From Chthoniobacterales bacterium (lineage in GTDB: Bacteria > Verrucomicrobiota > Verrucomicrobiia > Chthoniobacterales > Chthoniobacteraceae): a DNA stretch of 64,000 nucleotides. The stretch is from NCBI GenBank assembly GCA_038207335.1, contig JBBQZX010000017.1, forward strand, positions 51,787 to 115,786, read 5' to 3'. How positions within the stretch are numbered: the first letter of the stretch is position 1; the number at the start of each line of letters is the position of its first letter. Shown in pieces: positions 45,001 to 48,000 of the stretch. The position numbers were made by a program.

Positions 45001-48000
45001 GCTCCTCCGCACCGAGCCACGGCTCGCGCTCGCGCACGCGCCGGAGCTCGCGCAGGAGGCTGAGCGAGTCGGTGCTCGCGAGGCTGTCGGTGGCCACGCA
45101 GATGTTCAGGCCCATCTCGAGCAGGCGGCGAAATGCGAACGGCGAATGTCCGAAATATGCGTGGCTGCCGGGGCAATGCACGATGTGCGGGCCGCCGGTC
45201 GACGCGGCCTCCGCGAGCAGGGCGAAGTCTCCTTCGTCGAGTTCGTTCATGTGCGCGAGGATCCAGCGCCGGTCGATCGCGCCGCTGCGCCAGAGATTCT
45301 GGAATGGTGTCGTGCGCCCGCAGTCGCTCATCGGTCGTTGCAGCGACGACATGAATGCGTGCAGCGGGCCGCGCGCGTGGCGGAACATCGCGAACTCTTC
45401 GCGCGACTCGGCGACGTGAGTAGTGAGCGGCATTTCCATTGTCGCGGCGCAGTCATTCGCGAGGCCGTAGAGCATGGTCGATGCGGTGTAGGGCGCGTGC
45501 GGACTGAGCCCGAAGCCGCCGTGCCGGCCATCGCGCCGCTGGAAAAACGAGAGCGCGCCGGCAACCACATCGTCCGTTGTGATGCGGTGCCGGATGTCGA
45601 TCATCTCGTAGAACCACCACGTACGAATCGGAGTATCGACGATGCGCGGCATGAGCTCGGGAAATGCCTCAATGTTGCAGACGGTGGTCGTGCCCCAGCG
45701 CTTGAGTTCTCCGAAGCCGCGCGAGATCGCGGCGAGATAATCGTCATCGTCGAGCCCGCGTTTGAGCGCGTTGATCCGCTGCACCCATGCGGTGAAACTC
45801 GCGGGCGGCGAGATCACTTTTTTCAACATCGTATAGTCGAGGTGGCAGTGCGCGTTGATGAGCCCCGGCAGAACGACGCGCTCGCCGAGATCGAGCACGG
45901 GCCCGTCGTCGAGCGCGCGCATATCCTCCAGCGTGCCGACGGCGACGATGTGGTCGTGGTCGATCGAAATCGCGCCGTGCTCGATCGGCGCTCCGTCCAT
46001 CGTGACGACGATGCGGGCGGTGACGATCATGCTTGCGCGCGTTTCACGACTTCGCGCGCTTTGGCCACCAGCAGGTTGCAGGCTTCCGAGCACAGGAGGG
46101 GAATCGTGCGTGCCGCGCCGGGCGGTTGAGTCGCGGTCGGGTCGAATTTTTCCGGCGGCAGCGAAGTCACCGCGCGATCCGGCGCGATGCGCCACAGGAT
46201 CGTCTTCAGGCAGCCGCCGTCCGATTTGCAAAGGTCGCCGATCATCGCGTCGGCCTGCTCGTCGGTGATCTTTTTTGTGACTGCGTACATGCCGCTCTGG
46301 CGCGCGAGCGTCTCGCGCAGAAGGATGGAGAAAAGCTCACCGCGTTCGTGGCTGAGCAGCGTGCCGAGCATCGCGGGGTAGAAGACATCGAGCGCGCTGT
46401 GCAGCTCGCCGATGCCCGCCAGCACAAGGCTCCAGCCCCGTCGCAGCGTCGGCGCGCTTTTCAGCGGACGGAAATTTCCCGCGTCGTCGCACGTCGCCAG
46501 CGCTCGCGCATCGGTGTGCGTTTTCAAGTCGTCGCGACCCACGTCGCGGTAGTGCCGCAGCTCGAAATTTTCGCCCTGCGGCTCGATCGCGATCTCCCCG
46601 ATTTGGCGGAAGTCGTCGTCGAGCCAGCGTGCGAGCGCTTGCGAAATATCGCGACTCATCGCGTGCCGTTCGCGCGGTCGAACTCGGCGACCTGATCCAA
46701 AATCACATCGGCAAACAGTGGCTCGGTGCCGATCGAGCTGGCGTAGAAAAGCGTGCGTCCGCGGAGCTGGTGCGGATTGTGGCGAAACACATCGCGCTGG
46801 CTCGCGGCCGCCGTCGGCTCGGACTCGATGCCAAGCAGCACGGGGATGTCCTGGTAGCTGTGCAGCCCGTCGGCGATGAAGAACGGTACGACGATCACAT
46901 TGGGCTGCGACGCGAGTTCATCCCACCGCGAGATGAGCGGCTCCTCCTCCATGTAGGCATTCAGCACCTCGCCGAAAATCCCCCGTTCGGCGATCGCCTG
47001 CACCTCGCGTTTTGCGGCCACGGCGGAGTTGTCGTTGAGATCGGTGCCGTGGCCCACGATGAAAAGCGTGGTCTCGTGCGGCGGCACGCCGGGCGCGATT
47101 TCGAGCGCGCGCTTCAGCAGCAGTTCGGTCATGCGCGGGTGGCTGCCGACCGGCTCGCAATATCGGATCGTGCGGCCCGCGCGCTGCGTCTCCGCGCCGC
47201 TTAACTCGAGTTCCCGCGGGATGACGGTTCGGGTGAAGTAACCTTCGCTGATGAAGTTCGGCACGACGTAGATTTCATCCCGCTCCACGAGATGCATCAC
47301 CTGCCGCAGGCTCGGCTCCTCTTTCCAAAAGACCGAATGCACTTCGCCGAATACGCCGCGCCGCGAGATTTCATCGGCATGGGAGAAAGTCGGTGCGCTG
47401 GAATCGGGATTCACGGTCGAGCCGTGCCCGACGATGACGAGAGCGCTGTCGGGTTTGGAAAAGGTCGCGTTTTTCAATCCGACCAATATGCACCGATCGG
47501 CCCGCGGAGTCAGCTACAGCGCGCGAAATTCCACCACGCCGAAACGCTCCGGCGTGTGAAATGTGGGACGCCGCGGCGGACTCCACGCGCTCAAAACTCG
47601 CGGCCCCGTGCGCGGGCGATCGATCCGGCAGAAATTTGCGCGCCACGTGTCGCCCGGCGCAGGCGGTGGCCCGGCGATCAAGCTGGAGAAAGGGATGGCG
47701 AGTTCTGTTGTCCACGCGGCGGTGCCGAATGTGACGCGTGTTCGCAACCCGTCGCAGCGCCACGCCAGCGATTTTGCATAGCCGCTCCGGGTTCGCCGGA
47801 GAACGAGATCGAGGACTGCGTTGAGCGGATTAACTTCAATCTCGAAGTAGCACTCCAAGTCGCCCACGGGATCGAGAAAGACCTCCACGACTTCCTCTTT
47901 GTAGAGAGGCCCATCGCGCTCGGTAAGGGTGGCCCATGGATCGCGATCGGTGGAGTGGAAAAGAACGCGTAGCTCGCGCGCATCACAAGCGAGGTGCAGC

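What a model noticed while it worked through the whole genome (the two positions that open the first line are those of the whole stretch)
46027..47486. Siroheme-route heme synthesis with two unfilled steps: DR2241 [4Fe-4S] protein beside CbiX as the missing enzyme
This genome has HemA/B/C/CobA-HemD, a CbiX chelatase (g02478), a fused AhbAB/NirDL-type siroheme decarboxylase (g00167, C1:244242-245336) and ChdC (g00666, C3:105339-106163), but no HemE, HemH, SirC, AhbC or AhbD; the same gene set recurs in complete relatives, so two steps (precorrin-2 oxidation, acetate removal) have no known enzyme. The uncharacterised DR2241/Fer4_23 protein g02477 next to cbiX tracks this route; its profile fits best as a SirC substitute, which leaves the AhbC step orphan (less likely: DR2241 does the AhbC step).
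Evidence so far: Same 51 Verrucomicrobiia genomes: DR2241 in 16, HemH in 24 (48), ChdC in 17 (51), AhbC-like in 16 (52), AhbAB fusion strong in 25 (53). 15 of 16 DR2241 genomes have ChdC and the AhbAB fusion; all 12 AhbAB genomes without AhbC have DR2241. SirC (TIGR01470): 0 of 15 DR2241+ vs 5 of 10 DR2241- AhbAB genomes (56). 9 genomes incl. G000 and four single-contig 99%-complete ones (G128, G142, G192, G200; two are 0.9 Mb) lack HemE, HemH, AhbC and SirC (48, 52, 54, 56); the 6 radical SAM genes of G128 match MiaB, HemW, two futalosine-pathway enzymes, LipA and a KamA-type protein, none AhbC/D (162, 165). Control Deinococcus has DR2241 but neither SirC nor AhbAB (47, 56, 161). Four invariant Cys and seve [...]
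(Added by a program. Inside this text positions count along the whole contig: contig position 51,787 is position 1 of the stretch shown here. "Call 12" and the like, gene names such as g00115 and contig names such as C1 are that model's own, and its searches are not shown. The text may have been shortened before it was handed on; [...] marks where a part breaks off. The agent that wrote the report below was given it as the finding of a first reader that could run no searches.)

Follow-up and report, generated by a model that had tools for sequence, protein, structure and literature searches.

The report
Heme route missing its middle enzyme
Many verrucomicrobial bacteria appear to make heme from siroheme without the only enzyme known for the middle step, and an untested iron-sulfur protein encoded beside their iron-inserting enzyme is the best, though unproven, candidate to fill it.

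Summary
The genes are real: a CbiX chelatase coupled to a 210-aa DR2241/Fer4_23 protein with four conserved cysteines. G000 has AhbAB and ChdC but no HemE, HemH, SirC, AhbC or AhbD; so do 16 of 21 sampled AhbAB+DR2241 genomes for HemH/SirC/AhbC, six of them single-contig (48, 49, 54, 56, 57, 62). DR2241 instead follows AhbAB: of genomes with this CbiX type, 155 of 171 with DR2241 have AhbAB, against 3 of 52 without (107, 109, 111), through several independent losses. AhbAB genomes without DR2241 mostly carry AhbC (28 of 31 tested). Best reading: DR2241 acts after siroheme, probably in the AhbC step (0.42). Against: Deinococcus keeps it, fused to CbiX, in a sulfite-reductase/siroheme cluster without AhbAB. 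No assay exists.

The parts
46656..47486 (-). cbiX, PRK02395-type class II chelatase, predicted sirohydrochlorin ferrochelatase (276 aa)
   Evidence: PF01903 x2; NF002671 290 bits over cut-off 258; H146-G147 and G207-x-H209 invariant in 14 aligned CbiX proteins
46027..46659 (-). DR2241/Fer4_23 protein (210 aa); C144, C150, C190, C194 predicted [4Fe-4S] ligands; near-invariant R64, W76, Y94-P95, R120-Q121-x-G123
   Evidence: Pfam; PDB 2JH3 C-terminal half E 1e-18; model pLDDT 94.8 matches only 2JH3, Z 20.7, rmsd 2.2 over 185 residues, next Z 3.7; conservation over 209 sequences
44807..46030 (-). Coupled amidohydrolase (407 aa); neighbour by synteny, probably not part of the heme route
   Evidence: PF01979; below all NCBIfam cut-offs; in 77 of 81 close loci but 7 of 20 diverse loci

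Best explanation
These bacteria run an oxygen-tolerant version of the siroheme route: HemA/L/B/C and CobA-HemD make precorrin-2; it is oxidised without a dedicated SirC; CbiX inserts iron; fused AhbAB gives didecarboxysiroheme; ChdC finishes coproheme to heme. The DR2241/Fer4_23 protein most likely acts after siroheme and takes the place of the radical SAM enzyme AhbC (loss of the ring A and B acetates), alone or docked on CbiX. Inferred chemistry (my reasoning, untested): the four-cysteine cluster takes one electron from the isobacteriochlorin ring, C3/C8 is deprotonated, the acetate leaves as a radical as the ring aromatises, and the cluster gives the electron back; conserved Arg residues would hold the substrate carboxylates. 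Shown: gene content and co-occurrence. Inferred: every activity.
For: Class sample of 401: among genomes with this CbiX type, 155 of 171 with DR2241 have AhbAB, 3 of 52 without DR2241 do; the 49 lacking both span 18 families. Spot checks of the classes: DR2241 present in 5 of 5 two-match genomes, absent in 5 of 5 one-match genomes and from 8 of 8 CbiX-only loci. On a CbiX tree (38 rows) the DR2241 label changes 8 times, at least 4 forced by well-supported branches. 70-genome panel: ChdC in 32 of 33 DR2241 genomes and 0 of 26 g19; AhbC-like (390-505 bits) in 25 of 26 g19 and 4 of 33 DR2241 genomes; 3 of 5 further AhbAB genomes without DR2241 have AhbC. G020 (0.9 Mb, one contig, 99%) keeps hemA, hemL, hemC, cobA-hemD, a hemB-motif ORF, cbiX, ahbAB, DR2241, chdC and cytochrome oxidase CoxB, has no siroheme reductase, and has 6 radical SAM genes: LipA, HemW and KamA-type by scan, MiaB, MqnC and MqnE by best match in G000. 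Of 84 further Cys-conserving G020 proteins scanned, 83 have a Pfam family and one is a shadow ORF (125, 127, 130). Haloferax has DR2241, AhbAB and ChdC, and PMC5746218 (conclusions) leaves its aerobic coproheme source open.
Against: In 3 of 3 Deinococcus records the CbiX-DR2241 fusion is coupled to cobA-hemD beside sulfite reductase, cysC, cysH and sat; D. radiodurans has HemH and ChdC and no AhbAB match, so there is no AhbC substrate. 16 of 171 DR2241 genomes lack AhbAB; 5 of 5 checked have an intact four-cysteine protein; some are fragmented, but genus g10 (4 of 6) and families f70 and f76 look systematic. Three AhbAB genomes have neither AhbC nor DR2241 (G131, G364, G235). All 54 longer homologues are CbiX fusions; none is fused to AhbAB or ChdC, and no DR2241 locus examined has ahbAB or chdC nearby. 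Haloarchaeal AhbC has an intact CxxxCxxC in 4 of 4 copies, so Haloferax has both. No SAM-binding fold. Kin are not independent; one search scored only 3 candidates per genome.
Confidence: 0.42

Rival explanations
1. DR2241 is a helper of CbiX (iron or electron supply, or hand-over of siroheme to its acceptor), needed only when siroheme flux is high enough to feed heme. The AhbC step is then done by ChdC or AhbAB moonlighting, or by another protein such as a conserved aldo-keto reductase.
For: All 22 DR2241 genomes in the 171 sample have this CbiX; adjacent in 79 of 80 loci; fused repeatedly. Fits Deinococcus, Haloferax and G019. A 4Fe-4S centre on CbiX-L is reported (reference title seen; role recalled as unknown). 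An aldo-keto reductase sits head-to-head with cbiX in 20 of 80 loci and about 4 kb from ahbAB in both 0.9-Mb genomes.
Against: The same CbiX persists without DR2241 in 52 genomes and the genes are unlinked in G020, G107, G141, G015, G019, G178. g19 feeds heme from siroheme with a different CbiX that shows no cysteine motif, and no DR2241. G000 has no orthologue of the reductase (best 30%). Leaves the AhbC step empty.
Confidence: 0.28
2. One reading: DR2241 is an NAD-independent precorrin-2 oxidase replacing SirC, so CbiX-DR2241 equals the CysG-B module; AhbC stays orphan.
For: Deinococcus cassette = HemD + methyltransferase + CbiX + DR2241 + sulfite reductase with no SirC on the records or in the control genome; Halorussus plasmid cbiX-DR2241-cobA. 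By recall, the Bacillus subtilis cysH operon has sirC in this slot. None of 22 DR2241 genomes has SirC.
Against: SirC is missing class-wide in the sample; 36 of 36 DR2241-negative siroheme users lack it too; Synechococcus and Corynebacterium controls have a siroheme reductase but neither gene; E. coli cysG mutant is rescued by methyltransferase plus CbiX alone (PMC4063343); Haloferax has SirC and DR2241; loss tracks AhbAB, not CbiX.
Confidence: 0.22
3. The gap is apparent only: a divergent AhbC or HemE/HemH escaped detection, or the route is a relic and heme is imported.
For: G000 is 94.7% complete and has unassigned radical SAM genes (C1:249689, C7 end, a HemN-like gene). Only 84 Cys-rich proteins plus named genes of about 683 G020 orthologous ORFs were scanned.
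Against: Six single-contig genomes show the same gap; G020 has no unassigned radical SAM gene and no other use for siroheme; its AhbAB is 64% identical to G000's.
Confidence: 0.08

Closest known systems
Deinococcus radiodurans DR2241 (PDB 2JH3)
   Same: Same two C-terminal domains (E 1e-18; Z 20.7) and same CbiX partner. That 2JH3 holds a [4Fe-4S] cluster is taken from the Pfam description and recall of the structure paper, which I did not read.
   Different: Here a separate gene; host has AhbAB+ChdC and no HemH, whereas D. radiodurans has HemH+ChdC and no AhbAB. No function is assigned in the papers found.
Siroheme-dependent (Ahb) heme pathway: AhbA/B, AhbC, AhbD
   Same: Methyltransferase, class II chelatase, AhbAB/NirDL-type decarboxylase; no HemE or HemH.
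   Different: No SirC, AhbC or AhbD; ChdC ends the route; AhbA and AhbB are fused and below the NCBIfam cut-offs.
Haloferax volcanii heme synthesis (AhbAB, AhbC, AhbD, PitA/ChdC, CbiX2 HVO_1128)
   Same: Siroheme route ending aerobically in ChdC (PMC5746218); same CbiX subfamily, predicted as ferrochelatase (PMC8305020 supplement); DR2241 present.
   Different: Haloferax also has SirC, AhbC and AhbD; most verrucomicrobial DR2241 genomes have none.
SirC/Met8p/CysG-B precorrin-2 dehydrogenases
   Same: Occupies the same operon slot in Deinococcus.
   Different: No sequence or fold likeness found; no NAD-binding domain (4, 40).

Membership tests
DR2241/Fer4_23 family | PF18069 plus PF18009 over curated cut-offs | tested here: met
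   69.2 > 26.4 and 79.9 > 27 bits
DR2241/Fer4_23 family | Four cluster cysteines and the 2JH3 C/D-domain fold | tested here: met
   C144, C150, C190, C194 (77); Z 20.7, rmsd 2.2, 185 aligned
DR2241/Fer4_23 family | Binds a [4Fe-4S] cluster | not testable with these tools
   Inferred from homology to 2JH3
AhbC (radical SAM/SPASM deacetylase) | CxxxCxxC motif and radical SAM domain | tested here: not met
   No PF04055 or TIGR04546 match; cysteines are Cx5C...Cx3C. Not a member; only a possible analogue
AhbC (radical SAM/SPASM deacetylase) | Converts didecarboxysiroheme to coproheme | not testable with these tools
   Needs an assay
SirC/Met8p/CysG-B | TIGR01470 NAD-binding dehydrogenase domain | tested here: not met
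   No match in the protein or in G000 (49)
SirC/Met8p/CysG-B | Oxidises precorrin-2 | not testable with these tools
   Needs an assay
Class II chelatase (CbiX/SirB), for the partner gene | Two CbiX domains with the C-terminal metal-binding histidines | tested here: met
   PF01903 x2 (4); H146 and H209 invariant; equivalence to H127/H187 of Paracoccus CbiX (PMC4063343) is inferred from motif position
Class II chelatase (CbiX/SirB), for the partner gene | Iron rather than cobalt specificity | not testable with these tools
   Inferred: only CbiX-family gene found in G000 and G020 (64)
Canonical Ahb pathway, for the genome | AhbA/B present | tested here: met
   Two PF17805 domains in one ORF (20); NF040707/8 below cut-off because fused
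Canonical Ahb pathway, for the genome | AhbC and AhbD present | tested here: not met

The most novel reading that the evidence does not exclude
DR2241/Fer4_23 is a SAM-independent [4Fe-4S] didecarboxysiroheme deacetylase. With CbiX, AhbAB and ChdC it forms an oxygen-tolerant fourth heme route, the main one in much of the Verrucomicrobiia and the aerobic arm in haloarchaea.
Probability: 0.38. Interest if true: 0.87.

Novelty: new variant of a known kind. Interest (0 to 1): 0.7.

Why it matters
A 2026 review states that known pathway enzymes cover all known heme makers (PMC13564367, passage). Here 16 of 21 sampled AhbAB+DR2241 genomes, including 0.9-Mb complete ones with no other use for siroheme, lack the only known enzyme for one step. 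That gap stands whichever job DR2241 does. If DR2241 fills it, a protein with a solved but unassigned structure gains a function, AhbC chemistry (no purified-enzyme study per PMC10114771) gets a small non-SAM model, and the open question of aerobic coproheme supply in Haloferax (PMC5746218) becomes testable by one deletion.

Tried and rejected
1) Idea that haloarchaeal AhbC (TIGR04347 'pseudo-SAM') is inactive: rejected, motif intact in 4 of 4. 2) Conserved heme genes beside DR2241 in Verrucomicrobiota: none; 80 genome loci, 20 diverse loci and 80 metagenome loci show cbiX and housekeeping synteny only. 3) Conserved unknown gene beside ahbAB: none in 20 loci. 4) Fe-S motif on the other CbiX types as a general SirC bypass: none seen in 9 aligned proteins. 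5) Degenerate DR2241 in AhbAB-negative genomes: four cysteines intact. 6) Fold search: nothing above Z 3.7 except 2JH3 among 48,161 chains; inconclusive for function. 7) No complex prediction was obtained, so binding of DR2241 to CbiX or AhbAB is untested. 8) No whole-genome profile outside Verrucomicrobiota could be made; Deinococcus and haloarchaea rest on five plasmid records and the control panel. 9) Literature: 'DR2241' 1 paper, a table row; Verrucomicrobi+siroheme+heme biosynthesis+ahbC 0; Chthoniobacter+heme+siroheme 0; Methylacidiphilum 0; Rubrobacter+AhbA 0; TIGR04347 0; Fer4_23 one false hit. The library lacks most subscription papers. 10) The Fisher value printed is not used: kin are not independent.

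Full report
OBSERVATION. The stretch holds two coupled minus-strand genes: cbiX (46656-47486) and a 210-aa DR2241/Fer4_23 gene (46027-46659), followed by an amidohydrolase. The only solved relative is the C-terminal half of D. radiodurans DR2241, 2JH3; the AlphaFold model (pLDDT 94.8) matches it at Z 20.7 and nothing else above 3.7. Across 209 members R64, W76, R120, Q121 and G123 are at 1.00 and the four cysteines at 0.92-0.99. All 54 longer homologues are CbiX fusions.

GENOME CONTENT. G000 has fused AhbAB, ChdC, CobA-HemD with hemA and hemC orthologues and siroheme reductases. HemE, HemH and SirC (49) were not found. None of 21 scanned radical SAM genes of 23 is AhbC or AhbD. G000 is 94.7% complete, so the case rests on relatives.

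THREE HEME ROUTES. In 171 phylum genomes (completeness 97 or more, plus G000) DR2241 is in 22 and strong AhbAB in 47: 21 of the 22 plus 26 of genus g19 (two weak hits in other classes set aside). I then searched a chosen panel of 70: 33 with DR2241, 26 g19, 10 AhbAB-negative controls and G013. AhbC-like genes (390-505 bits; none reaches the 650 cut-off) are in 25 of 26 g19, 4 of 33 DR2241 genomes and 0 of 10 controls. ChdC: 0 of 26, 32 of 33, 0 of 10 (57). HemH: 0 of 26, 3 of 33, 10 of 10 (62). So the class splits into HemH, AhbAB+AhbC+AhbD, and AhbAB+DR2241+ChdC. Of the 21 AhbAB+DR2241 genomes, 16 lack AhbC, HemH and SirC; six are single contigs. HemE was tested in only five genomes and found only in G019 (79).

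THE SIRC GAP IS NOT SPECIAL. SirC passes its cut-off in 14 of 171, all outside the class (49). The 10 controls all have a siroheme reductase and the 26 g19 have AhbAB, yet none has SirC or DR2241; most carry a different, divergent CbiX. In PMC4063343 (section 5 and passages read) an E. coli cysG mutant with a methyltransferase is rescued by CbiX alone, and Paracoccus has no SirC candidate.

DR2241 FOLLOWS AHBAB, NOT CBIX. In the 171 set the PRK02395-type CbiX is in 24 genomes: the 22 plus G185 and G051, both without AhbAB or DR2241. To enlarge this I searched 401 class genomes with a fused CbiX-DR2241 profile and with AhbAB. Cross-table: both parts 171 (155 AhbAB+, 16 not); CbiX only 52 (3 AhbAB+, 49 not, over 18 families); 15 single weak matches set aside (2 AhbAB+); no match 163 (64 AhbAB+). 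Classes were read from match counts, only three candidates were scored per genome, and two weak AhbAB hits (G277, G227) were counted as present. Checks agreed in 5 of 5, 5 of 5 and 8 of 8 cases. A CbiX tree of 38 chosen rows needs 8 changes of the DR2241 label, at least 4 forced; G178 (both) is sister to G185 (neither), and G019 (DR2241, no AhbAB) groups with G234 and G265 (neither), as if DR2241 is lost after AhbAB. I did not test whether the 49 genomes have HemH or a siroheme reductase, beyond G185; G051 and G013, outside those 49, have the reductase. AhbAB genomes without DR2241 have AhbC in 28 of 31 tested; G131, G364 and G235 do not.

MINIMAL GENOME. G020 (915,884 bases, one contig, 99%) keeps the whole route except SirC and AhbC, has CoxB, no siroheme reductase, and six assignable radical SAM genes. 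Of 214 ORFs with three or more cysteines shared with G000 I scanned 84 (mostly under 500 aa): 83 have a family, one is a shadow frame. Cysteine-poor candidates were not screened.

AGAINST. In D. wulumuqiensis, D. radiodurans and D. ficus the fusion is coupled to cobA-hemD beside sulfite reductase, cysC, cysH and sat. The D. radiodurans control has HemH, ChdC and a HemE match, but no SirC and no AhbAB. A Halorussus plasmid has cbiX-DR2241-cobA. This is siroheme context and fits a SirC substitute or a CbiX helper. Sixteen class genomes keep DR2241 without AhbAB; the five checked are intact. Haloferax has DR2241, SirC and AhbC (PMC8305020 passages and supplement rows); plasmid ahbC copies lie beside ahbD-like, nirK or nos genes in 3 of 4 records (69-72), which allows but does not show an anaerobic-only role.

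MECHANISM AND ODDS. AhbC-step role 0.42; CbiX helper with the step done elsewhere 0.28; SirC substitute 0.22; artefact 0.08. The electron-shuttle mechanism in Best explanation is my inference. Reviews call the AhbC step an oxidative loss of acetates with unknown mechanism (PMC13564367, PMC7242693, PMC10114771; passages only).

PAPERS SEEN. PMC1274311: one passage. PMC5746218: passages and conclusions. PMC13564367, PMC7242693, PMC10114771: passages. PMC4063343: passages and section 5. PMC8305020: passages and supplement hits. The 2JH3 paper, the CbiX-L cluster paper and the B. subtilis operon layout are recalled, not read. Earlier AI notes report AhbC-less AhbAB+ChdC routes in other lineages; they are leads, not support.

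VERDICT. A real pathway hole in a large clade, not found in print by the searches listed, with a concrete candidate.

Noticed in passing
G000 C3:106307-106510 (L004:8308-8511): A small single-cluster ferredoxin (PF13370) lies head-to-head with chdC in G000 and near it in 9 of 18 chdC loci from several families, including both 0.9-Mb genomes; possible electron partner for the aerobic route.
   Followed up: partly
L092:4608-5633; L108:3624-4643; L299:8477-9559; L136:7353-8351: A very conserved aldo-keto reductase (62-90% identity) is head-to-head with cbiX in 20 of 80 loci and about 4 kb from ahbAB in G020 and G107; no orthologue found in G000 (best 30%); no NCBIfam family at 1e-40. Alternative candidate for a missing step.
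   Followed up: partly
L069:9510-9983: A small GAF-domain gene occurs in 25 of 81 loci, filling the gap between cbiX and DR2241 in L069.
   Followed up: no
L265:12455-13396, L267:5722-6612, L259:5017-5931: Genus g19 and the HemH-route families use divergent CbiX-like proteins that barely pass Pfam; the g19 form has a hydrophobic N-terminal part and follows secDF.
   Followed up: partly
G000 C1:249689-253291 (L003:13690-17289): Unassigned radical SAM gene ahead of an arsenite methyltransferase and ArsS, 4 kb from ahbAB; probably an arsenosugar cluster.
   Followed up: no
L107:4751-7002: In D. ficus an AhbD-like TIGR04053 gene and a cytochrome P450 precede the CbiX-DR2241 fusion.
   Followed up: no
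G161 C1:1875895-1876685: cbiX is split into two frames in this single-contig genome; sequencing error or broken gene not resolved.
   Followed up: no
L169-L172: NCBIfam TIGR04347 'pseudo-SAM/SPASM' proteins of haloarchaea are 41-45% identical to verrucomicrobial AhbC-like proteins and have an intact CxxxCxxC.
   Followed up: partly
window 47514-48158 and 48169-48684: CBM9-like and FHA-domain genes upstream of cbiX on the same strand; not conserved in diverse loci.
   Followed up: no
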